From Alloascoidea hylecoeti (taxonomy: Eukaryota), in NCBI GenBank assembly GCA_001600815.1, contig BCKZ01000003.1:186001-250000 (forward strand): a stretch of 64,000 nt of DNA. Direction: 5' to 3'. Shown piece by piece: positions 813 through 62,223 of the stretch; position 1 is the first letter of the stretch; every line of letters starts with the position of its first letter. Below the pieces are notes generated by a model. The model had not been told where the DNA came from, made no database searches, and saw only the letters and a program-made list of their open reading frames with translations. The position numbers and the translations under genes are program-made.

Positions 813-900
813 CTCCCACACAGGGGCTCGAACCCTGGACATTTCGGTCAGCTTCTAACTTTCTAAAAGCCGAACGCTCTACCAACTGAGCTATGCGGGA
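813..900 (-). tRNA. tRNA-Lys(TTT) with 15-nt intron
   Basis: Reverse complement folds as a cloverleaf: TCCCGCA acceptor, D arm GCTC-AGTTGGTA-GAGC, anticodon arm TTCGG-CT-TTT-A[GAAAGTTAGAAGCTG]A-CCGAA, T arm CAGGG-TTCGAGC-CCCTG. It closely resembles yeast tRNA-Lys(UUU) and is followed by a T-run. Confidence 0.96.
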
Positions 901-958
901 GATTTACAAACGTCAAGGAGGAACTCACGGTCCTATAGCCACCATCAGGTAAAAAAAG

Positions 959-1935
959 GAAAATATATGAAGTTAAAAAAAAAAAGAAAGATCACTATAA
1001 ATAGTAGAGATTTCCTCAGAATATACATAGTTTCTAGTTATATAATCTAATTGGAAAATATATGAAAAGTTAAAAAAAAATTGATTCTACTCCTGAAATA
1101 CATTCCACAGTTCTTGAACTAGCTAGTTCGGGGATATATACAATTATATTGCATTCTTACCGCACATTTAATACCTTAGTATGTTTATTACTTCTAGGAC
1201 TTTTTCTATTAATAGCTTTTGGATTTATCTATATAAGCGTAGGATAAATCCCACTTTAGAGGGAAGTCAGTTTTAATACACTTTTTATCTTGATCTTAAT
1301 AAGCCGAGTATTGGTTGCTTCAGATACATAAGTTATTAACCAGTTCCAACGCTTACCTTACATATCTTAGGTGGATTTTAGCTATGATATTGACAAAATG
1401 AGAGACAATTAAAAAACACAAAAAAGAATCAAAATTAATGGTGGTTTGAGTAAAATAAGAACGAACTAAATCTTGTCAGAGAAAGAAGAAAAATATAAAT
1501 ATTTAAATGTCGAGGTTTTTCACTATATGAGTGGTTTCCTCACTTAAATAGTTTCTCGTTTTAATTGGAAATTTTATATAAAAGTAAAAAAGAGTGTTAC
1601 AATTGTCTCACGCATAGTGAGACTTCATCCGTTAATAGAATTTCCTCCTGCCCGGTATTTAAGGATTTTTTTTATTGTTTTACTGTCCCAAGGATTTAGA
1701 TATTAAGATGCCCACTCTATTTTATTTAGCAAAGGCACTGGAATTAAGAAAGAGCATAAGATACAGGGACACAACCGCAAATTTAAATAAAATAGGCTGG
1801 GCATTTTAATATTTAAATCCTTGAGAAAATAAAACAATAAAAAAATAATTTAAAACCAATGGTGGTTTCGATAATCTTATCAGAGAAGGAAGAAAAATAA
1901 ATATGAAAAGGTAGAGGATTTTCACTATATTTGAG
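959..1935 (+). mobile_element. Stack of 5'-truncated L1-like non-LTR retrotransposon 3' ends on the plus strand (approx. 959-985, 992-1080, ~1400-1592, ~1740-1935)
   Basis: 992-1080 (TCACTATA..AGTAGAGATTTCCTCAGAATATACATAGTTTCTAGTTATATAATCTAATTGGAAAATATATGAAAAGTTAAAAAAAAA) is the near reverse complement of 60574-60660, the tail of the RT-bearing copy. 1764-1830 matches the 60790-60852 part of that copy. Confidence 0.85.
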
Positions 1936-1999
1936 AGTTAATATAATATTTCTGGCGGGTTCTGGCGTATTTGATACTTTTTAATTCTAGATCTAGTGC

Positions 2000-3389
2000 C
2001 TTTACTATAAGGTTATAAACTCGTCCTTCTTTCTCATATTTTTTTCTTTGATATTATCAATCCTTTGATTCCTACTCTGTAGGATCTTAACATCATTTTC
2101 TCTACCATTTTTATGGTAGAGCATTTTTCAAACATATGCTTTATATCATCTTTTCCTTGTTGAACTAAACTACATAACTGATTTTTGCCACTAATATTTT
2201 GTATTCTAGATTTAATTGATGTAAATCACCTTAGTTACGTATCACAAGCTAAAAAGATGAGTACTTAGTGTTTCCTCTGGGTGTTCTTGTAAGATTCTTT
2301 GATGTTTCCCCATAATTTCTTCCAATCTTCTTTTTTTAAACTTTGAACTCAAGAAGGTTGCTTATAGTCTATATGTTGGGTTATTCATTGGTTTATTTAT
2401 CGTTAATTAGTCGTTACTTCCGACATTTCGTATGCTCTTAATACAATCTCATCCTCGAATTCACCCAATTTTTTCTTACTTTATAAATACGTATAATTTT
2501 CAATTAAAATTTTAACCATAGAAACTATTTAAGTGAGATTTTTTTAACTTTACATATAATTTCCGATTAAAACTTTTAAATAATTTAAACCTGTTAAGAG
2601 GAAACTACTAAATTGAGAAAATCACACATAGAGTATTTTTTTTTTAACTTTACACATAATTTCCAATTAAATGACTAGTACTAACTAGAAACTATTTAAA
2701 GAAGGAGGTCATTCATAGAATGAAGACCCTCATTATCTGATTACATCTTTCTTTCATCTTTCTTGTCCTTCTCCTTTTTCTTATTTATTTATACCACCAT
2801 ATTGGCTGAATGTTTTTTATTTTCCAGGTATCTTGATATTAAGATACACTAATAAAATTCTGTGAGTAATTGTGGTTTTGTTCAATTTATTATAATTATA
2901 TGTTTTCTAATTCTATTGTTTTGATAATATTATATACTGTTTTTTCCATATTATATTTATGATCTGTATCTGTTTCGTTTATATAAAAACCTCTTCTTCT
3001 TAACTTATTTTTGACTCTCTTTTCTGTTTTTCTTGTACTTATTACTTTTCTTTATCTTACCACCATGTTTTTCGTTTTGTTTTGCTTTTCATAATATTTA
3101 GCTTAAATACTTTGATAATATCTTTCAATCATAAGATAATAATTTAACATTCTTTGTGTTTTTTTTTTTTTTAACTTTATATATTTTCCAATTAAATTAT
3201 ATAACTAGAAACTATGTAAATTCTGAAGAAATCTCTACTATATATATAAAAACCTCTTTCTCTAATCTTCTTATTTTTGTGTATTCTTGCCACTCTTTTT
3301 TCTTCTCTTATGAACCTAGACCACCTTAAAAGTAATTTTTTTTTTATTAGATATTTTTTACTTTTTCAAGTTTTTAGATAACCAAGAAT
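2000..3389 (-). mobile_element. Stack of 5'-truncated L1-like fragments on the minus strand (approx. 2000-2345 zinc-finger region, tails at 2469-2537, 2539-2634, 2636-2880, 2940-3130, 3159-3389)
   Basis: Minus-strand translation of ~2100-2345 gives degenerate LKKEDWKKLWGNIKESY.EHPEET and CSL.QQGKDDIKHMFEKCST, matching 60876-61130. Repeated poly(T)+AACTTT...TAGAAACTAT tails are visible. 3159-3389 aligns with 60574-60810. Confidence 0.85.
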
Positions 3390-3446
3390 TTTCCCATTGC
3401 TAGGGTGCTAGTGGTTCATTAGTAATAGTCGCTACAAAACAAAAAA

Positions 3447-3519
3447 GCCTTGATGGCCAAGTTGGTAAGGCGTAACACTAGTAATGTTAAGATCGTTGGT
3501 TCGAATCCGACTTGAGGCA
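3447..3519 (+). tRNA. tRNA-Thr(AGT)
   Basis: GCCTTGATGGCCAAGTTGGTAAGGCGTAACACTAGTAATGTTAAGATCGTTGGTTCGAATCCGACTTGAGGCA: 73-nt cloverleaf, AGT anticodon, followed by a T-run. Confidence 0.96.
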
Positions 3520-3546
3520 TTATTTTTATCGTACTCAAATATTTAA

Positions 3547-4099
3547 TTCGCCAACATGGAGTGAAAATTTTCGTCGCTTTGACATGTAAATATAGTAAAG
3601 TAGAGAATAAATGTCAGTTGATAGGGAGAGATTATTTAGTTGCATTAAGCAAAGTATATTTCGCCTCAATATTCGAATTGTTTGTGACTGTACTTACTTC
3701 TCAGTATACTGTATCTTAGCCAGTATGTTTTTTTTATGTTTTTTTCATACTTTTATTATAAGTTATACTAGACTAATAGTCTATAAGAGGATAAAAACTA
3801 TGAGTAGAGAATTTTTTAAAAAAGTTTGTTATACCCTGACAGTACAACAATGTCTGACATTTTATATTTACAAACGCGAGGAATGTATTAAGACAGAAGG
3901 GCTAACTCTTTGTCATCCATACTGCAAATTAGATTCTCAACATACTGGCTAATATACATTCACAGACAAGTCGAATATGGGGCCGAAATATATGCTGGGT
4001 ATGCAACCAAATAATCTCTCCCTGTCACTAATATTTATTCTTTACTATACTGAATAATCACATGTCAAAGTGATGAAAATGTCTCTCCAGATTGGCGAA
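3547..4099. mobile_element. Foldback/MITE-like element with long imperfect inverted arms (3547-3729 and 3939-4099)
   Basis: Left arm blocks TTCGCCAA, CTTTGACATGT, AGGGAGAGATTATTT, GTTGCAT, ATATTCGA and TTAGCCAGTATGTT all recur, in order, as reverse complements in the right arm. No transposase ORF and no clear target-site duplication. Confidence 0.65.
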
Positions 4100-4525
4100 C
4101 TCTGAGTGGAAAAGCTAGTGTGCTATCTATAACTTGTAAATATAATTATAATTAACAAATAACAAATACGTCTAATGATATGTTTAACAATAATAATCAT
4201 CATCATTGCTGTATAATTCTATTTTAACATGTTTTACTGAAAAACAATTGCAATGCTTGGTTATGGGTGAAAACGGCACCCACTTTTTGATCGTCTTTTA
4301 ATAGTATTGGGAGTCAAGTCTGCGACAGTAGGTTTTAACTTGGTCAATTAATTGCAATATATTTTAAAGCGATATATAAAATTAGAGATTATTTAATTTA
4401 AGGTGAATAAAAAGAAATCAAATAAATTGAGTATTCCATAGGTTAACATGGGTCTATGGTATAACCTAAAAATATCTTCAAACCACCATCCAACTTCTGC
4501 ACACACCCACAGAAAAGTAATAAAA

Positions 4526-6162
4526 ATGGGATCGATTGAAGCCATTTATATAACAGACATTAATAGGTACATATACCACTATTATATTTAAATGATCTTT
4601 CTTGCTAACTATTTATTAGCTACAACCTCCTATTTGAATACACTCTGTCGCCCTCTGCCCCATGTTTTCCATCTTTACAAGCCATTTTGACCACAGAATC
4701 ATTTAATCAAGACTCTTATCAAAAATCTACAAATTCCCCTTTTCCACCGGTGATTGAACTTCAATCTTCATCGTCCGTCCTTTTTACTTTTGCATACCAG
4801 AATCACTTATTATTTCTAATTCCTTGTTTATCTACTATCTCACCATTAGTCCCCTTTGAATTTTATAACCGTTTCATTGATGCTTTACATGATTTTCTTG
4901 GACAGCCTATCCTGAGCACGAAAGTTCAATCGCATCCTGATATAATTTCCCTCGTATTACTCGAAATGGTTGAATTTGGAGAACCGTTTAATACGGAACC
5001 AAATTCTATAAGAGATTTAAACTCGTCTGAGAATTTCCTAACAAAAATTCTTTCTACTGGTGGATCACAAAATTCACGCTCCGGTGCTGTATCAGGAAAT
5101 CTTCGTGGCGTTAGTACCCCTTCAGGGTTTGGAAACACAGCTGGATCTGGCACAGGAATGGATACAATTCCATGGCGTCGTACAAATGTTAAACATACAC
5201 AAAATGAGTTATTTGTCGATATAATTGAATCAATTGATGTTATCTTACAAACATCAAAAAACAGTAATAGTGATATATCATTTACTTCCAATTCAGGCTC
5301 TGCTTTTTATAATACATTATCTTCGAAATCCACCAATAAGAATGGAAAATCTAATCAAAATTATAAAACTAATACTCAACTTATTAAATCAATAATAAAC
5401 GGTACAATTCATTTCACATCACATTTATCTGGTATACCAGATTTACAATTAATTTTAGATTTAGCGGATAATAAAATTGATTATCCATCATTGCATCCAT
5501 GTGTTAGACTTAAAAGATGGTTAGATAACCCAGGTACACTATCATTTATGCCACCTGACGGAAAATGTCTTTTAGCAACTTACTCAATTCCAGATGTTCC
5601 GACCTCGAATATTGGAATTGTACAGATCGAATTAAAAAATCATATTGGGTTATCAAATAATGAATTTGAAATCAGAGTTTGGACCAATATGGCTAAAAAT
5701 GTTAAAGGAATAAATAAATTAAAAGTTACGATTGTTTCTGATATTGAAAAAACAAGAAATATAAAAGTTATAAGAGCATCAAGTGGCGATTTAATCTATA
5801 AAAGTTCTGGTGTTGCAGAATGGGTATTTGGTGAAAATGTACCATTAGGTTGGAATGCTACTTTGAGAGGTACAATAATAAAACAAGAAGAAGAAGATTT
5901 TGATAAAAATATTGATAATTCTGTTGACGATGATGAAGAATTACCCAAAATTTCTGAGTTGAATATATCAGATAAATCTTCAAACAATCGGATTTTGTTT
6001 CCACAATATGTGAAACTTTCTTATGACTGTATGGGATATTTACCGAGTGGTATAAAAGTTGCAAATTTAAAACTCGTTTCATCAAAAGGTATGAGTGATT
6101 CTGTTAAACCGTATAAAGGTGTCAAATATTCAACGGCTGTGGACCAATTCATAGTTAGATAA
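4526..6162 (+). CDS. APM3: AP-3 adaptor complex mu subunit; exons 4526-4566, 4620-6162
   Basis: Adaptin-mu motifs PWRRTNVKHTQNELFVDIIE, LHPCVRL..W, LSFMPPDG and KPYKGVKY. The intron (GTACAT..GCTAAC..TAG) joins MGSIEAIYITD in frame. Confidence 0.88.
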
Positions 6163-6302
6163 GTAATTGAAAACAATGGTCACCCATATCAATATTTGTA
6201 TTCTATTATACTTTATTCTATTCTATTGTATACGTATTGATATATAGAATGTATGTATAACAATAAAGAATTTTGACCTAATTATCCAATTAGTTATATA
6301 AA

Positions 6303-7503
6303 CTATGATGTGCCATTTGATTTGGTTGGTTCACCTTCCACAAAGACTCTTTTAATTTTAATGCCATTTTTCAACAAGGCAATAATATCGGAAAGACTTA
6401 AATTTTTGAATTGGAAAAAAGAATGTTAGTCCAATTTAAAAGAATGAGTTTAATAATCATTTATATTAACTTACGACTGAACAATATAATCAGTTTCCTT
6501 TAGATGGTGAGCGTTTTTATTATCGGGAGATTCCAATAAAATCGTGGTAGCCCCAGCATTTGCACCAGCTTTCATATCATCAATGGAATCACCAACCATT
6601 ATTACGTGCTCAGGATTGGCATTCTATAGGGAAATATTAGTTATGCAGTTTGTTTGTTTGACTTAAGATTTTTGAATGATATTTACCCAACTATCGGCAA
6701 TTTTCAAGATCCCAGCAGGATGTGGTTTTGGAGGATGAAATTCTCTAGTAATGATCTATTTGAAATCCATTTGTTAAAACTTATAACTTGGGCAGGGTAT
6801 ATCAAGACGGTTAAGCCACAACCTACCGGTTCAAATTTATGTTCAGGCAGAAATTCACTTAACAAATGATAAACAGGAATTGGAAAGTTTCTTGTGCAAA
6901 TTGCTTTTGGAATCTTAACTTCGTCAAGGAACTATTAAATCAAGAACGTGGTCGAAAATATGACAAGTTAATAGTTAGGTTATGATCAGCCATTAATAAC
7001 ATGCGTATTTCCACCTACATCCATCAATTCAAGAAGGCCCGGCTGTGGGATCTATATTTCCATAGTCAGCATAAGAAAACAAACAAATTCGGATGTCAAA
7101 ACATACGATCTGAACCATTGCTTCTCTTTCGATATCTTCCAGGGCCTTTTGAGCCTTTTGTTGTTCCTCATCGGGTAATGAGTGGACATGATCTAAAATA
7201 TCAACTGCTTTTGTAATTCCTAGAGCTTCTCTCATTTTGGCTATTCCTCCATTAGCACCTCTTTATTGAAATTATATGATCCAATTGGGTTTGTGTCTGA
7301 CATACCGAACATCCAGGTCTAATATTCAGATTAGTATTTAGATTAAACACAAATGAGGGAAAAAGTTAGAAGGTGAATATGAGTCAAACATCACTAATAT
7401 TACTATATACCTGTGGTTTACACAAAGTCCCGTCCATATCAAAGACAACCCCCTTCAATGGGACGTCTGACACATTTTCTGGTTTCACTATAAGTCTTGC
7501 CAT
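6303..7503 (-). CDS. HAD-superfamily hydrolase (YOR131C-like), 229 aa, 8 exons: 7503-7411, 7318-7306, 7240-7107, 7051-7019, 6931-6827, 6755-6687, 6623-6475, 6396-6303
   Basis: Splicing seven GT-AG introns gives a 690-nt open frame with HAD motifs VVFDMDGTL, ICTRN, KPHPAGIL and MVGDSIDDMKAG. Confidence 0.9.
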
Positions 7504-7579
7504 TCTAACGATCTTTTCAAATATCATAAAATCCAAGCACAATAAATTTAAGCCTTCGAGATAAAGCTTATGGTCTGAG

Positions 7580-7587
7580 CCGGGTAA
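7580..7587. promoter_or_regulatory. Reb1-type site CCGGGTAA in the 156-bp divergent HAD/VPS17 promoter
   Basis: Exact match to the yeast Reb1 consensus. The same motif recurs in promoters at 42594, 44760, 63928 and 63954. Confidence 0.5.
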
Positions 7588-7659
7588 CTTCGGGGCTATT
7601 TTCCACCCACACACTCCTCCTTTTAGATTTACGAGCACCCTATATAACCAACCAATAAC

Positions 7660-9369
7660 ATGACTTCATCAATCCCTTATAATCCAGAAGGTTTTGGTGA
7701 TGAGGACAATAATCCGTTTGCAACTTCTGACTCATTATCTGGTTCACAGGTCCCGGATCCAATACCAGCAATTGAGAGTTCTAAACCTACAAGGCCTACC
7801 ATGAGTAGTGACAGGTTAGTTGGAGAAGAGGCAGTTATAGGAGTTTCTCCACCACCACAGCCAAAACCAGTTAAAAGGAAGCAGATTAAGGAGTATAAAT
7901 TGACGGTCAAGATCACTTCTGTGGAGAGACATGGGAAAAAGGATCCAATTTTCAGATTTGATGCTCATGTAAGACTAAATCAATATATTGCTCACTCCAC
8001 GATTGTAAAACACTAACCTCTTTCTTTTCTAGACAAATCTTCCTCGTTTTAGAACTTCTACTTTTAAAGATGTCCGTAGGACTCATCATGAATTTATTAA
8101 ATTTTTTGAATATTTAAATGGTGCTAATCCTGAATGTTTTGTACCTTCAGTGCCACCATCTCATACATCAGCAGGTATTGGAACAGAAGAAAATGAAATT
8201 AAGGTTAAAAGAAACATGCAACAGTGGTTAGACCGTGTTACCAATAATCAAATTCTAATTAGAGACGAGGAATTTGTATTCTTTATTGAAAGTGATTTTG
8301 GAGTAAGTTTATTTTATTTCTTGTCAGGTCAATTTATTTAATTTATTAACTAAAGATTTGGTCTTAGTATACACCAGTAAATAAGAAAAAACCACCAGCA
8401 ACTGGATTGATGAGAAAGACTTTGAAACAATTTCAAACACCTTATGATGAAACAGAACTCGCCACATTTAGACCATTAGTTAAACAAATCTATTTACAAA
8501 CTCAAGAAGCACATACGAAACTTGAAAAGTCATCAAAGGCACGCCGTTCTTTTGGTTTAGCAGAAACAGATTTTGGTAACAAATTAACAAATTTTACAAA
8601 TTTAGAATTAGTTCACCCAGGAATGGCAAATATGTGGAAAAAATTAGGTAAAACAATTCAAAGTGTTGGTGATATTGATTTAATTAAATCAACTGCAGAA
8701 CAATCTACATTGGGCGACGTGTTATTGTGGATTTCAAAAGATTCTTATGTTGCAAAAGAATCAATGACAAATAGGTATTTGATAATGAGAGAATTAATAA
8801 AAGCCCAAGCAAATACAAAATCTAAGCATTCAGTTGCTCAAAGATTAAAAGCATCCTCATCAATTAATCCTTTAAAAGTTGATGAAGCAATAAATTCTTT
8901 AGATGAGGCAACGAGATATGAAGAAGGAATTACAAGAAAGGTTAACAGAGTTACTGAAAATATGTTACTTGAAAAAGATGAATATTTAAAACAAGTCGAA
9001 AATATGTTTCGTGGTAATATTGCTGAAATGGTTCAAAGAACAATCGAAGCTGAACGTCGTACTTTAAGTGTTTGGGAATCTATACGTTTGGACGTTCGAG
9101 CTGTTGATACGAACGGTGGTTTAAGTCGTTTAGGAAGAGAAGGATATCCCAAACAATTACGTCCGTCATCATTTGCCCAGAGTCAAGGCCCAAAGGGTGA
9201 CAGTTGGAGTGGAGATAGGACCACTAGAGCAGTTAGTATCAACACTAAAGATATTGTCGCAGGTGACAGTTATCAAGACAGCACACCAAACGATGATATA
9301 GGTGAGGAAGAAAATAATGTTGTCGATGCTAGAAATGCGGCTAGTCTACTGGCAGGTTCAACTTTCTAG
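7660..9369 (+). CDS. VPS17: Retromer PX-BAR sorting nexin Vps17; exons 7660-7968, 8033-8302, 8368-9369
   Basis: FRFDAH|TNLPRFRT..DVRRTHHEF..LNGANPECFVP and FFIESDFG|YTP motifs, with a C-terminal LDARNAASLLAG-like end. Both introns restore the frame. Confidence 0.93.
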
Positions 9370-9626
9370 CTATAATTATTACTGATTTTTTACTCATTTT
9401 TTACTCTGTTTTTGTATTTTTTCATTTAAATTTTATGATCATTAATTAAATTATAATTTATAATTGTAGGCATGCGCTTCGTATCTGCGTAAGCGTAAAT
9501 CCAGGTCTGTTCGATGCTGAAATATACGCTTGGAACTGTTGAAAACAAAATTTTCTCTTAATTCCTTTTTTTTCGATTTCTTTCTGTCATTCTTGAGAAA
9601 TATATAATAAAGGATAATTATAAAAG

Positions 9627-12495
9627 ATGGGTATGTTTTAATCATTTTGTTATTAAGGAGATCAAACTTAAAGATGTCTATCAAGTCATGAAGATTTGTA
9701 GTGAACAATTTATCTTCATGATAAATCTACAATGGATCTTTTTTTTATTGAAGAATTTTTTCAATCTTTTTTTCTAATCACTAACTTCGTTTTTTAGTTA
9801 ATTTCACTGTCGATGTAAGTAAAAGAAATAACGGTAGAATATATTCAATTGTGATGGTTATTGTGAATGGTTTATTTTAATAGCTATCGGATTCGGAATA
9901 ACCTTTCATTGGATGATTTTTTCATCTTATTATATTATGGCAATACCCCTTTCTGTAAACCACAGATTTACTAACTATTTTAATTAGCAAATCCGTGAAC
10001 TCATGGACAATGTTACGAATATTCGTAACATGTCTGTTATTGCCCACGTCGATCATGGTAAATCTACCTTGACTGATTCTCTTGTTCAAAGAGCCGGTAT
10101 CATTTCCGCTGCTAAAGCCGGAGAAGCTCGTTTTACTGATACAAGAAAAGATGAACAGGAACGGGGTATTACTATTAAATCTACTGCCATCTCTCTATAC
10201 TCTGAAATGTCCGATGAGGATGTCAAAGATATCAAACAAAAAAATTCTGGTAACTCTTTCTTGATCAATTTGATTGATTCTCCCGGTCACGTTGATTTCT
10301 CTTCAGAAGTCACTGCCGCTCTCAGAGTTACTGATGGTGCTTTAGTCGTTGTCGACTGTGTCGAAGGTGTCTGTGTCCAAACTGAAACTGTTTTGAGACA
10401 AGCTCTTGGTGAAAGAATCAAGCCAGTCATTATCATCAATAAAGTTGATCGTGCTCTATTAGAATTACAAGTTACCAAGGAAGATTTATATCAATCTTTC
10501 TCTCGTACTGTTGAATCCGTCAATGTCATCATTGCTACATACTTAGATGAAGCACTTGGTGATGTCCAAGTCTACCCAGAGAGGGGTACCGTTGCTTTCG
10601 GTTCTGGTCTTCACGGTTGGGCTTTCACTGTCCGTCAATTTGCTACTAGATACTCCAAGAAATTTGGTGTTGACAGAAGTAAGATGATGGAAAGACTCTG
10701 GGGTGATTCATACTTTAACCCAAAGACCAAGAAATGGACTACTAAGGAAAAAGATGCCAAGGGAAAACCATTAGAACGTGCTTTTAATATGTTTGTTTTG
10801 GATCCTATCTTCCGTATCTTCTCTGCTGTTATGAACTTCAAGAAGGATGAAATTCCAGTTCTTTTACAAAAATTAGACATTGTCTTAAAGGGTGATGAAA
10901 ATGATTTAGAAGGTAAAGCTTTATTAAAGGTTGTTATGAGAAAATTCTTACCAGCCGCTGATGCTTTATTGGAAATGATTGTTTTACATTTACCATCTCC
11001 AGCCACTGCTCAATTTTATAGGGCTGATACATTATATGAGGGTCCTTCTGATGATTCTAGTGCTATTGGTATTAGAAACTGTGATCCTAAAGCTGATCTT
11101 ATGTTGTACGTCTCTAAGATGGTGCCAACATCTGATAAAGGTCGTTTCTACGCTTTCGGTCGTGTTTTCTCTGGTACCGTTAGATCTGGTATGAAGGTTA
11201 GAATCCAAGGTCCTAACTATATTCCAGGAAGTAAGACTGATTTATCTATCAAAGCTGTTCAAAGAACTGTTCTTATGATGGGAAGATCTGTTGAATCAAT
11301 TGATGACTGTCCAGCTGGTAACATTGTTGGTTTAGTTGGTATTGATCAATTCTTATTGAAATCTGGTACTTTAACAACAAATGAAACCTCCCATAACATG
11401 AAGGTTATGAAATTCTCTGTTTCTCCAGTTGTTCAAGTTGCTGTTGAAGTTAAGAATGCCAATGATTTACCAAAATTGGTTGAAGGTTTAAAGAGATTAT
11501 CCAAATCTGATCCATGTGTTTTAACTTATATGGCTGAAACTGGTGAACATATCGTTGCCGGTACTGGTGAACTCCATTTGGAAATTTGTTTGAAGGATTT
11601 GGAAGAAGATCATGCTGGTATTCCATTAAAGATCTCTCCTCCAGTTGTCGCTTATAGAGAAACAGTTGAGGCTGAATCAAGAATTACTGCCTTGTCTAAA
11701 TCACCTAACAAGCATAACCGTATTTACGTTAAAGCTGCCCCACTTGACGAGGAAGTTTCTCTTGCTATTGAAAGTGGTAAGATCAGCCCTCGTGATGATT
11801 TCAAGGCCCGTGCTCGTATCCTTGCTGATGCTCACGGATGGGATGTCACTGACGCTAGAAAGATTTGGTGTTTCGGTCCAGAAGGTACCGGTCCTAATTT
11901 AGTCGTTGATCAAACAAAGGCCGTTCAATACTTGAGTGAAATTAAGGATTCCGTTGTTTCTGGTTTCCAATGGGCTACTAAAGAAGGTCCAATCTTCGGT
12001 GAAAACTTAAGATCAGTTAGAGTTAACATTATGGATGTCACCTTACACGCTGATGCTATCCACAGAGGTGGTGGTCAAATCATTCCAACAATGAGACGTG
12101 CTACTTATGCTGCTTTCTTATTAGCTGAACCACGTATCCAAGAACCAGTTTTCTTAGTTGAAATTCAATGCCCAGAAAACGCTATTGGTGGTATTTACTC
12201 AGTTCTCAACAAGAAACGTGGTCAAGTTATCTCTGAAGAGCAAAGACCAGGTACTCCATTGTTCACTGTTAAAGCATACTTACCAGTCAATGAATCATTT
12301 GGGTTCACAGGTGAATTAAGACAAGCCACTGGTGGTCAAGCTTTCCCACAGATGGTATTCGACCATTGGGCTACAATGTCTGGTGACCCAACTGATCCAG
12401 CAAGTAAACCAGGTCAAGTTGTTGTTGAAGCAAGAAAGAGACATGGTATGAAGGATGGTATTCCAGGTTATGAGGAATACTACGATAAGCTTTAA
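9627..12495 (+). CDS. EFT2: Translation elongation factor 2, 842 aa; exons 9627-9630, 9798-9814, 9988-12495
   Basis: Spliced N-terminus MVNFTVDQIRELMD, GTPase motifs [14 protein letters not shown] and NKVD, diphthamide loop [12 protein letters not shown]-terminal YYDKL. Confidence 0.98.
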
Positions 12496-16911: not shown

Positions 16912-16943
16912 ATCATGATCATGATCATGATCATGATATCATG
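16912..16943. repeat. (ATCATG)n microsatellite
   Basis: atcatgatcatgatcatgatcatgatatcatg seen directly. Confidence 0.8.
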
Positions 16944-33435: not shown

Positions 33436-33610
33436 AATATTGCTTCTTTGAAAATTCCGGATCATACCATAGCACAGACAGACTCAGACTTACTTATGCT
33501 ATATATATGTTTGTTGAAAGGCCTGATTGTGTTCCATATCCTCGTCTTTTAGGACGTACTTGGGGTGCACCAAACAGAAGCGTAAGTTATTTGAAAGTAA
33601 GGTTTTCTTC

Positions 33611-34085
33611 TTTTTTTTTTAACTTTATAATAATTTAAATAATTTAAATCTTCTAACTAAAAACTATTAAATTGAGGAAATCACAAAGAATATAAAACCT
33701 CCGCTTCTTCTTTATTTCGTTGTATCTCTTTATCTTATCGCCATGTTATTTTTTAATTTTTTTTAATTTTTTATTTTTATCTCAAATATGTTGACAATAA
33801 AATACCCCAATCTATTTCATTTAATAGTTCCGGTGGTGATCCTCCAAATTTGATGCTTCGTCTACCTTTGAGATGAAAAGGCCTTTCTTTTTTATATTTT
33901 TTCCATCTTTATCTATTATCAGATTTTTGATATCTATTGTTTCTAGTATTTTCTTTTCTATTATTTTCACTGTATTACACTCTTCAAAAATATGATTAAT
34001 ATCATCTTTCCTATTTTGACAAAGACTACAAATATCTGATTTGTGCCACCATTCTTTCGCATTTTTATTGACATCTAACATATGT
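33611..34085 (-). mobile_element. 5'-truncated L1-like retrotransposon (zinc-finger C-terminus, 3' tail, poly(A)) upstream of tRNA-Asn
   Basis: HMLDVNKNAKEWWHKSDICSLCQNRKDDINHIFEEC, then after a frameshift GGSPPELLNEIDWGIL, is homologous to 60800-61000. Ends in AAAGTT+poly(A) at 33611-33626. Confidence 0.88.
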
Positions 34086-34117
34086 GTCAATCATAATATT
34101 CTTTTTGTCATAAATAC

Positions 34118-34191
34118 GACTTCGTGGCCAAGCTGGTTAAGGCGTGCGACTGTTAATCGCAAGATCGAGAGTTCAATCCTCTCCGAGGTCG
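34118..34191 (+). tRNA. tRNA-Asn(GTT)
   Basis: GACTTCGTGGCCAAGCTGGTTAAGGCGTGCGACTGTTAATCGCAAGATCGAGAGTTCAATCCTCTCCGAGGTCG cloverleaf, followed by a T-run. Confidence 0.96.
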
Positions 34192-34219
34192 CTTCTTTTT
34201 TACAATTTCTATGTTTCCA

Positions 34220-38296: not shown

Positions 38297-38301
38297 AATA
38301 T

Positions 38302-42810: not shown

Positions 42811-42927
42811 GGTGACGAGTTGGATGCCAGCCGCATGGAAAATCAGTGAAAAAGATAAAACTATAAAAATGTAATTTTTTTCTTTATTCCTTTAGCTCTT
42901 TTCTTGCAATATTTTTGTCTTTTCAGA

Positions 42928-43860: not shown

Positions 43861-43889
43861 ATAGTTTATAATTTATATTAATAATTTAT

Positions 43890-45729: not shown

Positions 45730-46553
45730 ACTTAAATTGTCATTTTATACAATTGATCGACTCTCTAGGATTTATGGAACATTATGCACAATGTTAAGAG
45801 TAATTTAAAGCCTTGTAAAGTATTCATGCTCAGTACTGGTACCAGTACCTGGTTACAGTATTGCCAATTTTTGGAAAAAAGGCGTAACGTTAAGTTAGCA
45901 TCAGCTGTATCATCATGATATAAATATTTAATATTAATTGAAAATTAATTAAAAGGAGATGATAAACTCAATTGCAAAATGAATAGTTTCGACTCATAAA
46001 TTTCATACATATTTCAATTTTGACAAGAAATTGAGATATGTTTTCAAACAATTAAAATATCTGGAGGCCTTTCTGCAAAAGTTTAGAAAAGTCACGAAAT
46101 TGAAAATCGTTTCACAGAAATTCATAGTAATGACGAACAAATAAATATGAAAAGTTATACATATTCAGGTTATCAATGGTCAACTGCAATCTTCCTGTTA
46201 GATCTAGGAATAGGCAGTTAGTCTAATGAGTACTTAATACTTATACACAGTATTTCATTATGAGATTAACTTAGTCTATGCTAAAGTCACAATAAAGTGT
46301 ATAATTAACAAAGAATTATTATTAGTATTAATTAATAATTATCAATATTATATAAATTGAACCTATTTTAATTTATAACTGGATCTTATGAAAATTTATG
46401 AGTCGATCGCAAAATTATTAGTTTCAACTTTCCAGGTTACCCTCACTTCGACTAGTTCATTTAAAGGGAGACCAATCTCCCAAAAATATTAGTTCAAACT
46501 TCAGATAAAATAAATCTCATTTTCCAAGAACATCTCAATTTTACCCTCACATA

Positions 46554-53000: not shown

Positions 53001-53474
53001 GTTCTGTCGAGAAGGAGAAGAAGAAACTCTATTCACTTCTAATTACAGATCAGGGAAATTTCATAACTAGATATAGTAAGTACTTATGATGTTACACCTG
53101 TCGAACTAAGGTATATATATGTATTCGTTTTATTCCACAAACATTTTCTTGTCCGGATAAGTTCTTAATAATGGCCATGCATGAGAGTTTCTGTAATTAA
53201 CCGTTTTTCATATTTTTTTAAAAATTGGCGATCCACCACGGTACTTTTCTGGTACTTTCTGAAAAGTTTTCCAAACGTCTCGATAAGGTGTTCTTTCCTC
53301 GTACGCTTGAATAAATAATGAGTTCTAAACTCATTAATAAATTTGTAGGATCTTAATCAAAGTGTAGGTTCCTTACGTAAACCGTCTCTAATAATAATAG
53401 AAATTTATTTACCCTGCCTTTGTAGAGAAACTCTATCAACCAATAACACCAAGAGCTATACTACAATTCTACAA

Positions 53475-56467: not shown

Positions 56468-59400
56468 AAAAAAGTTCTTGATTTAATGTAGTATTTGCTT
56501 TTTTTGATTTTCTATAATTATAATTAGTTGATTTGATTTTTTAAAATTTAATTTTGTCTTATTTAAACGCGCGTGATTCTGGAAAAAAGTGTAATAATTA
56601 ATGAAATGAAAATGTTTAGCATTAATTTATAATGTTTAAATTTAAAATTTGTATTATGTTTATTTAATCTTATCAAATATATTGGGTTGGGTTTTCTAAA
56701 TTCTTATTTTTTTATCTGTTCTTTTTTTTATATATTCATTTTAATAAAAGGCAAACTCTAAATTTCATAAATGTTAAGGGGGTTTTACAGGTTTTTTATT
56801 ATTGTACCATGAAACGTGACAGCTATAGGACCTTATATAAATATATAAATTTAAAGCGATTAAGCTGGATTCGAGTATTTTATATGGATGCAATTGTCTT
56901 TAATTTTTAGTTGCAAATGATCAAGGCTAGCGCTCATGATTATGCATAGGAGATCTAGATGCAACAGCCATTCCCTCGTAAACATATATATAACATATCA
57001 AATATAACACATAAAATTTTAGCTGTATTAATTTATAAACCTATAGTTATAGCTATTAACCAAGACTCTGTAAGTCTGTGAAGGTGATGTTGTATATAAT
57101 TTCAATTTCAGTTATGATTTGCTCCGTAAAGAATATTAAAATGGTTGGTTATCTATTAAATTATTAAAATACTTTTACATCTAATCTACCTTAGCTTGTA
57201 CCAAAAATGCCGTTTTATTTTATGGATGTCTTAAAGTCAGCATTATGGCTTTACATTATCGCCTTTTTCTAGAAAATCAAGTAATTAATTTTAAAACTAT
57301 ACCTTTATGGTTTGTAAAACTATAAGTTATATTTCTCATGATCATCAAACTATTGGGATAATGGGATGCAATCCAATTTGGTTAATGCCCATTCACATTC
57401 TATATATAGATATAGCCTTATTATGGCCCCATTTCCCTAAATTTAATTTGCTTTTAAAATTCGGGTATGACTACAATCGAATTTAAATGCATATGCATAT
57501 AGCGACTAACGAGTCTCACGATATTAATTAAGAGGAAATTCTGAGGAGTTAATATATAATGGATGCCCGAATTTTCTTTGAATAAATCTTGATCTACGAA
57601 GTTGTACAATTCGTGTATCGGTAAATCATAGTTTGCAGAATATTTAGCACCACACAATAGTAGCACTTTGATTACTACCGGTATAACTAAAATGTACTTC
57701 ACATTCGCTTACTGTTAATGAACCAAGCGCCATCACTTTTATCTAAATTTATTAGTTCTGAACATTTAATTATTTGTCTGACGACTCTATCATTTCTTTC
57801 ACATTTCTCATCGATGGTGACCCGTCCATTTCTTCTATCAAGAACTCTTTGATCATGAAGCAATCTTCTAAATACTCTATGTCGCTCAACCAACTCGTGC
57901 ATTGATACCAAGATTTAATAATTGTAGCGCAGATTAGTCATCATGCAATCAAAATAGTTTTGTTGCCAAAATGAACCCCTGGAAATTCCCTTAATTAAGA
58001 GCAACTTACGTTTATCCGAGATCTACTATGGTTAGAAATATGAACATGAAAATCGCTTTAATATTAATTTTAAAATAAAAAGACCCAGTAAGCGTTATCA
58101 TTTCCTGATCTTGATCTACTAAATTTCCAACGAACCTTTCTGAAGTTAGCGAAAATAATTTCCCCACGTTTATAATTATTAATATTCTTCTTCTTTATAT
58201 TTCCTGAATTAAGTCTAACAATTAAGGAGAGATCAATTACAATTGCATTCTACCTTTTATAACCTGCGATATACAGGAAGTATGATGATCAAGTTATTAA
58301 ATTTTTAATCGTAATTGTTGAATATAGGTAAGATTAATTAATTGACCAATGTAACTGTGTCAAGCTTAAATTAACAGGTTCAAATTTTAAAAGAACTAAT
58401 AATCATATAAAGCTTATATTATATAAGGGATCCGAAATAAATCAGAACAACATATTTTCAATAGCAGTGTACTTGTATTATAGGTTACATATCATTACAA
58501 GTAGTGAAATGTTACTATAAAGTTAACCTAATGAGCAGTTCTTTCATTTATTCGTAGCGTTATTTGAAAGAAATAATAATGAAATGTTTGGGGAATGATT
58601 GAGATTATAAGCGATCGCGATCACGATCGCGACGTTAATTAGCAGGTTGATCCTTTGAAATTTTATTAATAGAAGATCAGAAACCAGAAACATAATTGAT
58701 AATATTCATAGAACTTAATTAGAATTAGTGATGTATAGGTGTGATATGTTGGTCATTTAAGCTTTTCCAAACCTTTCGATGAATTCGTTAATATTTTTCA
58801 AAAATAACATTACAAATTCAAAGAAAAACGGTTTGAAATTGGCTAGTTACCCAAATTTAACGTTAACGCTTTTTATTTGATTAATTATTTTTCGAAAGGG
58901 TGTCATAATGTCCAGTGTCTACAAAGTACATACGGGTGTACTGCCATGATCACCGACTTTCAATTTCCACCACAAAATTAGTTATACATGTATACCTTAT
59001 ATATCAAAATAAATATCAAAGTAAATGATTAGAATTAAATTAGTTACCCCTGTGATGGAGACATGGATCCTAGTTATACTAGTTATAATCATAAATGAAA
59101 CGTGTAGCTTTTAACAAAGATAAATGAGATAGTTTTACATTTGTTTACTCATATGGACTGAAAATTTCTGAAAACTAAATAGGTGCTAAATAACCTCCTA
59201 GATTAAGCAAATAATATTTGAGTAAATATATATATATTTATACGCTCAAGTATTCATTTATTAGATTTGATTAGTATATTCATACAGACATGTCCATATA
59301 GGTATTATATAATAGGTACCTATAGGCCTATAACACATAATCTCTCTTCTATCTGCAAGAACAGTATAAGACTTATATGACCACAGCTCCACATTTCGCA

Positions 59401-60323
59401 CAATTTTGACAAACCTGGAGCATGCAAGTGATCATGAGAGTATATAACATTCTATAGATAAATAATAATTATAGGCAATTACAATGCAAAACTTTTACCA
59501 CATTAACTATAGGCTCCATTTTAAAATCAGAAAAAAAAATATATCTTTAAATCTAAATTTGATAACAGCTAATATTATTGTTCTAGTAGGGAAAGTAGAA
59601 TTGTTCTAGCTACAGGTCAAACAATTATTCCATCCAAATTTCTAACGTTAACTGATAGATGACTGATCGATATCTGTTCAATTGTTATAATAAGAGATTT
59701 GGTCATCCCCTAATTATAATTAACTAGTATTATTGTCTTACTAAAATTTATAATATTCTTTCAATTTAAAGTTTTTTATATTTATTCAGGACAAATATTA
59801 TTTTCCCTGCGTCTACGTATATTACCATCTAATTAATTTTAAATTTTATATAGGTACTATGGCATTCACCATGGCTAGGAACCAATCAATTTCGGAGAGT
59901 ACTTACATCTCTTATATTTTCCCTTATGTTCGAAACCGCTAGTTATAATTATAAATGCGTCTTTATTTTATGTTATCAATTCTTTCACTTCTATTTGTCT
60001 GCAGTACTCTATCAGACGAATTAACTATATTCCTCTATTTTTCTGTATTATGGTTTTTAACTGAACGATTACAACGAATGTAGACCTCTGGTCTGCTCAC
60101 CATTATATCTTCTTCGATTAATATTGTTTATGCTATTTTATACGTACCTCCGTATCCGACTCTTGTTTACTTAATTCTACCATGCATTACGCGCTAGTTT
60201 ATTTTATTCTACTTATTCTTTAACTTCTTTACTCTTTTTGATATCTCTTCATGTTCCAAAAGCTTTTTTAATATTCATTTGTTTCTATTATCATAAATTG
60301 GCTCGTCAATTTTTCTGCTATAA

Positions 60324-60373
60324 TTTTTTTTTAACTTTACATAATTTCCGATTAAAACTTCTAACTAGAAACT
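60324..60373 (-). mobile_element. Very short 3' tail of the L1-like element
   Basis: poly(T)-AACTTTACATAATTTCCGATTAAAACTTCTAACTAGAAACT matches the tails at 2539 and 2636. Confidence 0.75.
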
Positions 60374-60573
60374 TGACCTTGACCCCCATTAAAGTCTTTT
60401 TTAAGGGGAGGATTCATTATTTTGTTCGTTGGTTATAATACAGTTTATTCATCGTTTATTACCCATTATTTCTTAAATTGCTTTTTATGTTATTAGGGAG
60501 CTAAACATAGGTAATAGAATCTCGTTCTCGATTTCAACCCCAGCTGAAATTTTAATTTTTTTTAATAATTTTC

Positions 60574-62080
60574 TTTTTTAACTTTTCATATATATTTTTT
60601 ATTGAATTATATAACTAGAAACTATGTAAATTCTGACGAAATCTCTACTCTATATAGTGAAATAAAAACCTCTCTTTCTATTCTTCTTATTTTTGTGTAT
60701 TCTTGACACTATTCTTTCTTCCCTTCTTATGTACCTAGACCACCTTTAAAGCAAATCTTTTTTTTTTTTTCAGATATATTTTACTTTTTCAAGTTTTTAA
60801 ATATTAGAATCCCCCAATCAATCTCATTTAATATTTGTGGTGGTGTCCCTGCAAATCTAATATTTTTCCTTAGATTTAGTGCCTTATGGTTGAGCAGTCT
60901 TCAAATAGATGTAATATGTCTTTACCTTGTTGACATAAACTACAAGTATCAGATTTTTTTGCATTTTTGTTAGGATGTAGCATATGATTAACGTATCCCA
61001 AGCTGAGTAAATGTATCCATTGTGTCTCCTCAGGGTGTTCCTTATATGTTTCTTTGATAAATCCCCACCATTTCTTCCAATTTTCATTTTTTAGTTCCGG
61101 AATTAACTGCATCCATTTGTTTGGTTTCAATATAATTTTGTTTTTATTATACCACTTCTAGGTTATTGATTTAATCGAGTATTTGGATATGTTTTCTTCT
61201 TCCATGTATTTTATTCTTTTTTCGATATCTTCACCTGCTGGGGTTTCCACCAGTTTTTGTAACGCTTCATTTAATGCTGTTGCTATATTTTCCAAGAATT
61301 CTCTCATTAACTTTGCTTAGTCTTCGTCACCTTGCAATGCACTCTACATCCAGCTAGCTTAACGACCTAATAATTGCTTTTTTAGGTCGCTTAAACCAAA
61401 ACCATCAGCTGAAATGGGAGTTTTCAATTTTTCAAGAGCAATGGTTGTTGTCCAGGGAGATATCGCTTTTTTGCTTCATTTTCTATCTTCTCTATTGTTT
61501 GTTGTGGAATTGGCTAAAATTCGTTAAGAAACTGTATTTTGGAGAATTGTTGCTCTATCATTTTCATTATTTTATTCTCGAACTTAGACCATTGAACTCC
61601 TAAAATGGGAACTCCAATATGGGTCATATTTTTCAGATCATCTGTTTCATAATTTAAAGTTGATTTGAATATTCCATTTTCTCTTCTCCTTTGGTTTTCA
61701 TTATTAAAATAATATATGGATGATTTTGATCGATTTACTTTTGAATCCGACACATTTCAAATTCATCGAGAGTGTATTTTAGTAGGTTATGTTCGTTTTT
61801 ATTCAGCAATATGACGGAACAATCATCCGCGAAGGCTAGATTTTGAAAACGAATATTTGTCAGTGTCGAAGAGATATTCCTTTTAACCTATGGCTCAATA
61901 AGTTTGAGAGTGGCTCCAAACATAAATTAAAGATGATGGGTGCGACTGGGTTACCCTGCCTGACACCTTTAGACATTTTGAAGAGCTCACTAATAGTATC
62001 GTTTAGAACTTGACCTAGATTTTCACTAACTGCTACATTCAACAGGTTCATGAATCTGGAGCCAAAGTTAGCTTTTTCAA
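60574..62080 (-). mobile_element. 5'-truncated, internally deleted L1-clade non-LTR retrotransposon (RT, zinc finger, poly(A)) upstream of tRNA-Leu
   Basis: Minus strand: EKANFGSRF, GVRQGNPVAPIIFNLCLEPL, LAFADD (FADD at 61822-61833), SKVNRSKS, HIGVPI, PISADGFGLSDL, W..WW, CSLC..HLFEDC, then a short 3' UTR and an A-run. Several frameshifts and stops. Confidence 0.93.
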
Positions 62081-62140
62081 CGAAAGGAACAACAAAAATA
62101 ATGAATGTGATGATGAGTTCCTTCACACCCACAAGAAATA

Positions 62141-62223
62141 GGAGGGTTGGCCGAGTGGTCTAAGGCGGCAGACTTAAGATCTGCTGGACGTTGTCCGCGC
62201 GAGTTCGAACCTCGCATCCTTCA
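62141..62223 (+). tRNA. tRNA-Leu(TAA)
   Basis: GGAGGGTTGGCCGAGTGGTCTAAGGCGGCAGACTTAAGATCTGCTGGACGTTGTCCGCGCGAGTTCGAACCTCGCATCCTTCA, with a long variable arm; nearly identical to yeast tRNA-Leu(UAA). Confidence 0.97.

What the first reader, a model, noticed from the sequence alone, without database searches (positions are those of the whole stretch)
813..62223. A tRNA-gene-targeted, orientation-specific LINE family in a yeast (4 of 4 tRNA genes hit)
Seen: each of the four tRNA genes (Lys, Thr, Asn, Leu) has an L1-like fragment immediately upstream. The adjacent copy is always on the opposite strand, with its truncated 5' end facing the tRNA and its poly(A) pointing away. Homology stops about 59 bp (Lys, 959 vs 900), 58 bp (Thr, 3389 vs 3447), 61 bp (Leu, 62080 vs 62141) and 33 bp (Asn) from tRNA +1. 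The intervening flanks share no obvious sequence. I found no such tails in the large tRNA-free intergenic regions. Known: Dictyostelium TRE5-A LINEs integrate about 50 bp upstream of tRNA genes with the same polarity through TFIIIB tethering, whereas the tRNA-targeting elements I know in yeasts are LTR types (Ty1, Ty3). Inference: an independently evolved, position-specific (not sequence-specific) Pol III-tethered LINE. I am not aware that the yeast L1 elements Zorro or Ylli do this.
Basis: partly seen in the sequence, partly recalled or inferred. Interest (0 to 1): 0.93.

Follow-up and report, generated by a model that had tools for sequence, protein, structure and literature searches.

The report
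Yeast LINE stacked upstream of tRNA genes
In this budding-yeast window, every one of the four tRNA genes has stacks of broken copies of one LINE retrotransposon about 50 bases upstream, all pointing the same way, a habit so far described only for amoeba LINEs.

Summary
The window has exactly four Pol III genes: tRNA-Lys(UUU), Thr, Asn and Leu. Each has 5'-truncated fragments of one non-LTR retrotransposon family immediately upstream. The family shows RT motifs, a C-terminal CCHC knuckle, a conserved 3' tail of about 85 nt and poly(A). There are 10 recognisable 3' tails, all in three tRNA-adjacent clusters and none elsewhere in 64 kb. All 10 lie antisense to the nearest tRNA with the poly(A) pointing away.

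I revise the non-LINE flank lengths to Lys 50-57 nt, Thr 51-57 nt, Leu 44 nt (not 61) and Asn 19-33 nt. Copies are stacked head to tail. The subfamily with by far the highest summed contig depth is the tRNA-proximal one in 3 of 3 multi-copy arrays. That fits repeated integration at a point anchored to the tRNA gene.

The nearest relatives are Zorro-like L1 ORF2 proteins of other yeasts (41-46% identity). Published Zorro3 targets poly(A) tracts and shows no tRNA association.

Best reading (0.62): a TRE5-like, position- and orientation-specific LINE of the yeast L1/Zorro lineage, probably guided by the Pol III/TFIIIB complex.

Not shown:
- the genome-wide distribution (no genome is held)
- a full-length copy
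- the tether itself

I class it as a new variant of a known kind.

The parts
812..900 (-). tRNA-Lys(UUU) gene with a 15-nt intron
   Evidence: the anticodon was read from the sequence (ARAGORN's Leu-tag label is an intron artefact)
958..985 (+). K1: tail-only LINE copy (17 nt + A11), young subfamily A, preceded by A7 (951-957)
   Evidence: I8, 94% to the T1 tail
986..1080 (+). K2: LINE 3' end (about 89 nt + A9), subfamily A
   Evidence: nhmmer E 4.4e-16; 95% over 74 nt to T1 and 89% over 80 nt to LeuP
1082..1395 (.). Unassigned multi-copy repeat. A possible 314-bp solo LTR (TG..CA, AAAT/AAAT) that splits K2 from K3
   Evidence: up to 13 contigs in X1 and raised summed depth. Not resolved
1396..1594 (+). 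K3: LINE 3' UTR plus tail, older subfamily C
   Evidence: nhmmer E 2e-15
1597..1728 (-). Inverted duplicate of part of K4 (a palindrome arm with no tail of its own)
   Evidence: I2, 85% over 71 nt
1732..1931 (+). K4: LINE ORF2 end plus 3' UTR; its 3' end is missing
   Evidence: blastn 73.6% over 125 nt to the Leu copy
1935..2472 (-). T6: LINE ORF2 C-terminal region, decayed; its 3' end is missing
   Evidence: blastn 70.6% over 231 nt; the HPEE and knuckle frames
2473..2537 (-). T5: LINE tail, subfamily C, with a degenerate poly(A)
   Evidence: nhmmer E 3.8e-8; 92% over 38 nt to K3
2539..2633 (-). T4: LINE tail, subfamily B, A7
   Evidence: nhmmer E 9.3e-14
2634..2948 (-). T3: LINE ORF2 end, 3' UTR and tail, subfamily B, A10
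   Evidence: nhmmer E 1.2e-17
2949..3158 (-). T2: strongly diverged LINE 3' UTR copy
   Evidence: blastn 60% to the Leu copy; 70% over 98 nt to the Asn copy
3159..3389 (-). T1: LINE 3' UTR plus tail, A14, subfamily A. Its 5' end lies 51-57 nt from tRNA-Thr
   Evidence: blastn 82.8% over 256 nt; nhmmer E 3.7e-14
3447..3519 (+). tRNA-Thr(AGU) gene
33603..34098 (-). Single old LINE copy (ORF2 end with knuckle, 3' UTR, tail, A10). Its 5' end lies 19-33 nt from tRNA-Asn
   Evidence: E 2.4e-9; P0103, E 0.016
34118..34192 (+). tRNA-Asn(GUU) gene
60197..60320 (-). Weak third LINE fragment (ORF2-end region) distal to LeuD
   Evidence: 69% over 72 nt to the Asn copy. Weak
60321..60416 (-). LeuD: LINE tail, subfamily B, A9
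   Evidence: nhmmer E 2.3e-12; 98% over 40 nt to T3
60555..62096 (-). LeuP: the longest copy (1.54 kb). It runs from the RT motifs to the CCHC knuckle, a 3' UTR of about 245 nt and the tail, with frameshifts and stops. Subfamily A. AATAAT flanks it at 62097-62102 and 60564-60569
62141..62223 (+). tRNA-Leu(UAA) gene

Best explanation
These are remnants of an L1/Zorro-lineage non-LTR retrotransposon of a budding yeast. It integrates by target-primed reverse transcription at a point anchored to tRNA genes, about 45-57 bp upstream of the mature 5' end. It always integrates antisense, with its (usually truncated) 5' end facing the tRNA gene.

Each new insertion lands between the unique tRNA flank and the previous copy. 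Older copies are therefore pushed outward into head-to-tail stacks.

Shown: the family identity, the location, the orientation and the stacking.

Inferred:
- An element protein (ORF1p, by analogy with TRE5-A, or ORF2p) recognises the TFIIIB/TFIIIC-bound promoter. I put this step at about 0.4.
- The endonuclease then nicks the tRNA-sense strand at a nearby T-rich run.
- That run primes on the poly(A) tail.
For: Association and orientation.
- 4 of 4 tRNA genes, the only Pol III genes found, carry the family upstream.
- 10 of 10 tails are antisense to the nearest tRNA and point away from it. None of the 10 lies outside the three tRNA clusters.
- blastn and tblastn find nothing convincing elsewhere.

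Position.
- The non-LINE flanks are 50-57, 51-57 and 44 nt for the three loci with young copies. This matches the 40-54 bp quoted for TRE5 (review table).
- The four flanks share no sequence with each other.

Stacking.
- In the Thr array, six copies follow each other with 0-18 nt between one copy's tail and the next copy's 5' end.
- K1 and K2 abut. K2 and K3 abut once a candidate LTR is removed.
- Subfamily A (K1, K2, T1, LeuP; 89-95% pairwise over 74-80 nt for the three long tails K2, T1 and LeuP) is the tRNA-proximal one in 3 of 3 multi-copy arrays.
- Subfamily A is also the abundant one. Summed contig depth at place 1047 is 24054, 2148 and 1694, against flank levels of about 59, 9 and 7.6 in X1, X2 and X4. 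The subfamily B and C bins are only 5-8 fold.

Poly(A) tracts alone do not explain it. Seven A/T runs of 9 nt or more outside the arrays carry no copy.

Precedent. TRE5-A has the same orientation rule, and its 5'-truncated copies show short distances caused by target-site deletion (passages).
Against: - The sample is only four loci in one window, with no genome-wide test.
- The Asn copy lies closer (19-33 nt).
- One contig in each of X1, X2 and X4 joins place 900 (a tRNA 5' end, 28 letters) to place 2638 (a poly-T tail start). This may be another locus with a tail facing a tRNA. It is unresolved.
- No clear target-site duplication is present. The AATAAT pair around LeuP could be chance.
- K1 has A-runs on both sides, and T7-T8 runs lie at two insertion points. 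Sequence preference therefore contributes.
- 147 nt between LeuP and LeuD are not demonstrably LINE.
- The arrays are identical in three data sets, so no empty site or recent movement was seen.
- No full-length copy, ORF1 or endonuclease domain of this family was found. The only relative above 50% identity is a 108-aa fragment.
Confidence: 0.62

Rival explanations
1. This is a Zorro3-like LINE that simply targets poly(A)/poly(T) tracts, including its own tails. It survives only in the gene-free DNA upstream of tRNA genes because insertions elsewhere are selected against. No Pol III complex is involved.
For: Its relatives are Zorro-like. Zorro3 integrates into poly(A) tracts and carries poly(A) at both ends (passages). 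K1 is flanked by A7 and A11. T8 and T7 runs sit at the Leu and Lys insertion points. TSDs are absent or unclear, as in Zorro3 and Ylli.
Against: Seven other A/T runs of 9 nt or more in the window are empty, including A16+A13 at 35713-35742. Large ORF-poor stretches (14.8-19.8 kb and 47.1-53.5 kb) hold no copy. Insertion into earlier tails would put young copies distal, yet the abundant subfamily A is proximal in 3 of 3 arrays. Selection does not explain 10 of 10 orientations or the 44-57 nt spacing. Tagged Zorro3 showed no tRNA association.
Confidence: 0.2
2. Integration really is anchored to tRNA genes, but by a feature other than protein contact with TFIIIB. Candidates are the nucleosome-free or bent DNA upstream of active Pol III genes, R-loops, or replication-fork pausing at tRNA genes.
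For: The same positional evidence applies as for the best explanation. Nothing in the window distinguishes a protein tether from a structural cue.
Against: In the studied precedents the cue is a protein contact: TRE5-A ORF1 with TFIIIB, Ty3 integrase with TFIIIB and Ty1 integrase with AC40 (review passages; abstract in listing). A spacing this tight and a strand rule this strict are easier to obtain from an oriented complex.
Confidence: 0.12
3. The association is an artefact of duplication. A tRNA-plus-LINE unit was copied around the genome, or the repeats are solo LTRs of a Ty3-like element and not a LINE.
For: tRNA-upstream LTR elements are the rule in yeasts. One candidate solo LTR does lie in the Lys array.
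Against: There are four different tRNA species, unrelated 44-57 nt flanks and different truncation points. Poly(A) tails, variable 5' truncation, RT motifs matching LINE ORF2s and a CCHC knuckle all fit a LINE. No LTR-type termini bound the copies.
Confidence: 0.03

Closest known systems
TRE5-A (DRE) of Dictyostelium discoideum, and NLTR-B of Polysphondylium pallidum
   Same: [quoted passage not shown] Copies are often 5'-truncated, and target-site deletions shorten the distance (passages).
   Different: The host here is a budding yeast, not an amoeba. The nearest relatives by sequence are yeast Zorro-like ORF2s, not TREs, although no tree with TRE5 was built. No A/B/C-module UTR structure, ORF1 or TFIIIB contact could be examined. 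Poly(A) tails here are long and pure.
Zorro1/2/3 of Candida albicans and C. dubliniensis; Ylli of Yarrowia lipolytica (yeast L1-like LINEs)
   Same: They are the closest sequence relatives: 41-46% identity over about 70-78 aa of the RT, and 40% over 77 aa to a C. dubliniensis Zorro1 protein. Relatives have an APE-type endonuclease, an RT and about 1150 aa. They share poly(A) tails, heavy 5' truncation and unclear TSDs.
   Different: Zorro3 integrates at poly(A) tracts near Pol II promoters, with no association with tRNA genes. Zorro1 and Zorro2 are subtelomeric. No tRNA preference appears in the Ylli passages I read. The family here is confined to tRNA-upstream sites in this window.
Ty3, Ty1, Tca8/beta, Tyl3 and Tj1 (yeast LTR retrotransposons targeted to Pol III genes)
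   Same: The host group is the same and so is the safe haven upstream of tRNA genes. A candidate solo LTR shares the Lys array.
   Different: Those elements use integrase-mediated insertion of LTR elements at -1 to -30 or in a wide window. This one uses target-primed reverse transcription, has a poly(A) tail and no LTRs, and keeps a fixed antisense orientation at about -50.

Membership tests
L1-clade (Zorro-like) non-LTR retrotransposon | LINE-type reverse transcriptase | tested here: met
   The motifs GVRQGNPVAP and FADD are present. phmmer finds 238 proteins at E<=0.001, with full-length ORF2s aligned at their RT domains. Pfam RVT_1 reaches only E 6.6e-5, below the cut-off, because the copy is truncated and decayed.
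L1-clade (Zorro-like) non-LTR retrotransposon | N-terminal APE-type endonuclease in ORF2 | not testable with these tools
   Every copy in the window is 5'-truncated before the RT motif. Exo_endo_phos matches 3 of the 5 full-length or polyprotein relatives scanned (6 proteins scanned in all).
L1-clade (Zorro-like) non-LTR retrotransposon | C-terminal cysteine-histidine knuckle after the RT | tested here: met
   CSLCQQGKDILHLFEDC in LeuP, with remnants in T6 and the Asn copy. It aligns to the C-termini of P0004, P0103 and P0080 at E 0.001-0.03.
L1-clade (Zorro-like) non-LTR retrotransposon | Poly(A) 3' end and variable 5' truncation | tested here: met
   There are 10 tails with A7-A14 or degenerate A-runs. 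Copy lengths range from 28 nt to 1.54 kb.
L1-clade (Zorro-like) non-LTR retrotransposon | Target-site duplications | tested here: inconclusive
   The only candidates are a 6-nt AATAAT pair around LeuP and an A-rich 8-mer at Asn. Both could be chance in 68% A+T DNA.
tRNA-upstream, TRE5-like position-specific LINE (a functional class, not a clade) | 5' junction about 40-54 bp upstream of the mature tRNA sequence | tested here: met
   Lys 50-57, Thr 51-57, Leu 44, Asn 19-33 nt. Three of 4 lie in or near the range.
tRNA-upstream, TRE5-like position-specific LINE (a functional class, not a clade) | Constant orientation, with the element's 5' end facing the tRNA's 5' end | tested here: met
   4 of 4 arrays and 10 of 10 tails. 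The one inverted piece (1597-1728) has no tail and duplicates K4.
tRNA-upstream, TRE5-like position-specific LINE (a functional class, not a clade) | Genome-wide restriction to Pol III genes | not testable with these tools
   No genome is held and two metagenome scans found nothing. The window alone shows 0 copies away from tRNA genes.
tRNA-upstream, TRE5-like position-specific LINE (a functional class, not a clade) | Element protein binds TFIIIB | not testable with these tools
   No ORF1 or intact ORF2 of the family was recovered.
Zorro3-type poly(A)-tract targeting | Insertion at poly(A) tracts irrespective of tRNA genes | tested here: not met
   Seven A/T runs of 9 nt or more outside the arrays are empty, and all 10 tails lie at tRNA genes. 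A local T-run preference within the tRNA-upstream zone is not excluded.

The most novel reading that the evidence does not exclude
A LINE of the yeast Zorro/L1 lineage has independently evolved the TRE5 strategy. It recognises the TFIIIB-bound upstream edge of tRNA genes and integrates about 50 bp upstream in a fixed antisense orientation. It has spread to a few hundred copies, so that most tRNA genes of this yeast carry stacks of it. That would be the first tRNA-targeted LINE in fungi, and it is related to an element (Zorro3) that already retrotransposes in S. cerevisiae. The LINE-to-Pol III tether would then become open to yeast genetics.
Probability: 0.45. Interest if true: 0.75.

Novelty: new variant of a known kind. 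Interest (0 to 1): 0.62.

Why it matters
Targeting tRNA genes is the classic way for retrotransposons to survive in compact genomes. In fungi it has been described only for LTR elements, which use integrase. For LINEs, which use target-primed reverse transcription, it has been described only in social amoebae. This rests on the table of the 2018 review and on five full-text searches that turned up no yeast case.

A yeast LINE with the same distance and the same strand rule would be a clean case of convergent evolution across kingdoms and across integration mechanisms. It would show that the upstream edge of the Pol III pre-initiation complex is a general landing pad. It would also give a system close to laboratory yeasts in which to ask how a LINE ribonucleoprotein reads a DNA-bound transcription factor.

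Tried and rejected
- Whole genome. None is held, so the distance and orientation plot could not be made.
- Metagenome scans. A tail pattern gave 0 matches. With P0001, 334 pattern matches were found but none was confirmed.
- The search for homologous proteins with the 146-aa C-terminal piece, stop read as X, option 'longer': no hit.
- Earlier notes of this scan: nothing by place, by sequence or by words.
- Sequencing runs. No RNA holder is listed, so nothing can be said about expression.
- Laid contigs. They showed no allele lacking an insertion. Contigs break at the repeats, so other tRNA-LINE junctions could not be read. Parts without cover are not interpreted.
- Extending LeuD by eye across 60417-60563 was not supported by blastn. 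I dropped it.
- A TSD search at T1, K1 and K2 found nothing.
- I considered the 'inverted' fragment 1597-1728 as an exception to the orientation rule. It is an inverted duplicate of K4 with no tail.
- No tree with TRE5, Tx1 and Ylli was built. Those sequences were not obtainable from the tools, and 73 contiguous residues would not resolve one.
- Supplements of the papers were not opened.


Full report
HOST AND SETTING

The window is 26-39% G+C and carries long uninterrupted ORFs: EF-2, a 2406-aa RasGAP, carboxypeptidase Y, an M16 peptidase and chorismate mutase. The best named homologues of its chorismate mutase are budding yeasts of several orders (Ogataea, Pachysolen, Babjeviella, Ascoidea, Nadsonia), at only 60-64% identity. 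The host is therefore a Saccharomycotina yeast from an isolated lineage, and I leave it unnamed.

No whole genome is held for it. Three DNA data sets labelled with one coded organism hold window 1-10000. So does one wood-decay metagenome.

THE OBSERVATION

ARAGORN and Rfam at gathering thresholds each find four tRNA genes and no other Pol III gene. The first gene (812-900, minus strand) is labelled Leu(tag) by ARAGORN.

Upstream of tRNA-Leu, minus-strand frames from 62096 down to about 60880 encode GVRQGNPVAP, FADD and CSLCQQGKDILHLFEDC. Frameshifts and stops interrupt them. Of the five fragments given to Pfam, one matches RVT_1 (E 6.6e-5, 23.1 bits, below the 29.6-bit cut-off) and four match nothing.

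A phmmer search of 1.84 billion representatives with the 73-aa RT piece gave 238 proteins at E<=0.001. The best is a 108-aa fragment at 84% identity (P0001). After it come full-length ORF2-like proteins of about 1130-1180 aa at 41-46% identity. I looked up 10 clusters. Three carry names: 'L1-like non-LTR retrotransposon Zorro 1' of Candida dubliniensis, and uncharacterised proteins of C. pseudojiufengensis and Sungouiella intermedia. Six proteins were scanned with Pfam, five of them full-length or polyprotein relatives. All five have RVT_1 and three also have Exo_endo_phos. The repeats are therefore decayed, 5'-truncated copies of a Zorro-like L1-clade LINE.

THE TAILS

- Ten 3' ends align to a common tail of about 85 nt that ends in poly(A).
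- A profile built from them finds nine at E<=3.8e-8, and the next hit in the window has E 1.1.
- The tenth (958-985, 17 nt plus A11) is too short for the profile. It is 94% complementary to the T1 tail (I8).
- All ten lie in three places: 958-3389 between the divergent Lys and Thr genes, 33603-34098 before Asn, and 60197-62096 before Leu.
- blastn with each array against the rest of the window gives only 60-75% matches in A+T-rich stretches.
- tblastn with 14 relatives gives nothing below E 0.1 outside the arrays.
- About 37 kb of the window lies outside ORFs of 120 aa or more, including ORF-poor blocks of 5.0 and 6.4 kb. None of it holds a copy.
- Three tails are on the plus strand, all next to the minus-strand Lys gene. 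Seven are on the minus strand, all upstream of plus-strand genes. So 10 of 10 are antisense to the nearest tRNA with the poly(A) distal.

DISTANCES

tblastn with P0001 and P0004 carries the Leu copy's homology to 62096, so the flank is 44 nt, not 61. AATAAT occurs at 62097-62102 and again directly after the tail at 60564-60569. It is a candidate 6-bp duplication, but it could easily be chance.

- Lys: 50 nt of unique flank, then A7, then the first copy.
- Thr: homology ends between 3389 and 3395, giving 51-57 nt.
- Asn: an old copy at 63-68% identity, with homology fading between 34084 and 34098, giving 19-33 nt.

The four flanks share no sequence.

STACKING

In the Thr array, six minus-strand copies follow one another. 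T1 runs 3389 to 3159, T2 ends near 2949, T3 at 2634, T4 at 2539, T5 at 2473 and T6 at 1935. Only 0-18 nt separate one copy's tail from the next copy's 5' end.

K1 and K2 abut. K2 and K3 abut if 1082-1395 is removed. That stretch is a multi-copy repeat bounded by TG..CA and AAAT/AAAT.

The tails fall into subfamilies:
- A: K2, T1 and LeuP, 89-95% pairwise over 74-80 nt. K1 fits A.
- B: T3, T4 and LeuD, 94-98% over 35-40 nt.
- C: K3 and T5, 92%.

Contigs of three data sets were laid at 80% likeness. The summed depth over subfamily A sequence is about 100-fold the flanking level per 200-nt bin, and 220-400-fold at place 1047. There, 24-27 contigs carry the family's majority base. The B and C bins are only 5-8-fold. 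The tool warns that summed depth is not a copy number, so I read this only as 'A is by far the most abundant, with many near-identical copies'.

Subfamily A is the tRNA-proximal member in 3 of 3 multi-copy arrays. If new copies entered earlier poly(A) tails, they would lie distal to the older ones. The observed order instead fits an insertion point fixed next to the unique tRNA flank.

MECHANISM

The geometry means that the first nick falls on the tRNA-sense strand about 45-57 nt upstream. The distal fragment's 3' end then primes on the poly(A) tail.

T8 precedes the AATAAT at Leu, and T7 sits at -51 to -57 at Lys. A local T-run preference like that of Zorro3 is therefore likely. Zorro3 integrates into poly(A) tracts, but its 30 tagged insertions showed no association with tRNA genes (passages).

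T-runs alone do not explain the pattern. Seven A/T runs of 9 nt or more outside the arrays are empty.

I therefore favour a two-level choice. The zone is set by the Pol III complex, and the nick is set by the endonuclease. The tether itself is inferred from TRE5-A, whose ORF1 protein binds TFIIIB (review table).

COMPARISON WITH WHAT IS KNOWN

[quoted passage not shown] Its 5'-truncated copies often show target-site deletions that shorten the distance, 28 bp in one case (passages). That matches the three young loci and offers an explanation for Asn.

The 2018 review lists tRNA-targeted non-LTR elements only in dictyostelids, and only LTR elements for yeasts (passages and table). Dictyostelids evolved such targeting several times (abstract and section 9).

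I found no description of a tRNA-associated LINE in a yeast in five full-text searches. Passages on Zorro and Ylli gave none either. Subscription papers, Repbase reports and supplements were not seen.

AGAINST, OR STILL OPEN

- The sample is four loci.
- No full-length copy, ORF1 or endonuclease domain of this family was found.
- No TSD is secure.
- The arrays are identical in all three data sets, so no empty site was seen.
- One contig in each data set joins place 900 (the tRNA 5' end, 28 letters) to place 2638 (the start of a poly-T tail), with unknown letters between. It may be another locus where a tail faces a tRNA gene, for instance a close divergent tRNA pair. I could not resolve it.
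- The 147 nt between LeuP and LeuD are unassigned.

VERDICT

The best explanation is a TRE5-like, tRNA-anchored, orientation-specific LINE of the yeast L1/Zorro lineage (0.62). The main rival is poly(A)-tract targeting plus selection (0.2). I class it as a new variant of a known kind, with interest 0.62.

Noticed in passing
window 716-766 (minus strand), 46 nt downstream of tRNA-Lys: A short retroposon-like fragment ends in T11 on the plus strand. Summed contig depth is about 17-fold the flank. Other copies continue beyond 766 with one consistent sequence, while the sequence before 716 varies. This suggests a 5'-truncated poly(A) element of another family, lying downstream of the tRNA in the same orientation. 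It recalls TRE3, but this is a single instance.
   Followed up: partly
window 3547-4099, 28 nt downstream of tRNA-Thr; also 62532-62662: A foldback or MITE-like element with terminal inverted repeats of about 150 nt at 80% identity. Its interior is 69% similar to a stretch about 310 nt downstream of tRNA-Leu. It may be a second mobile family that sits downstream of tRNA genes.
   Followed up: partly
window 1082-1395: A 314-bp multi-copy repeat lies inside the Lys array. It is bounded by TG..CA and a 4-nt AAAT repeat, and up to 13 contigs match it in X1. It is possibly a solo LTR inserted at the K2/K3 junction.
   Followed up: partly
window 1597-1931: A palindrome. An inverted duplicate of K4 (1597-1728) faces K4 (1732-1931), and the strictly matching arms are 71 nt at 85% (I2). 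K4 (plus strand) and T6 (minus strand) meet tail to tail at about 1931-1935, and both lack their 3' ends. This suggests a deletion where the two arrays met.
   Followed up: no
window 33275-33436 and 45280-45730: Another dispersed repeat (65-79% identity), unrelated to the LINE. One copy lies just distal to the Asn LINE copy.
   Followed up: no
window 14811-19766, 47100-53474 and 56468-60200: Large stretches without ORFs of 120 aa or more. They may hold intron-containing genes or decayed elements. I did not annotate them.
   Followed up: no
window 812-900: ARAGORN in bacterial mode calls this intron-containing tRNA-Lys(UUU) 'Leu (tag)'. Eukaryotic tRNA introns mislead it.
   Followed up: yes
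runs X2 and X5: The same 10-kb stretch is held almost completely (0.92 of the sampled words) by a wood-decay metagenome run. The yeast therefore occurs in that kind of sample.
   Followed up: no
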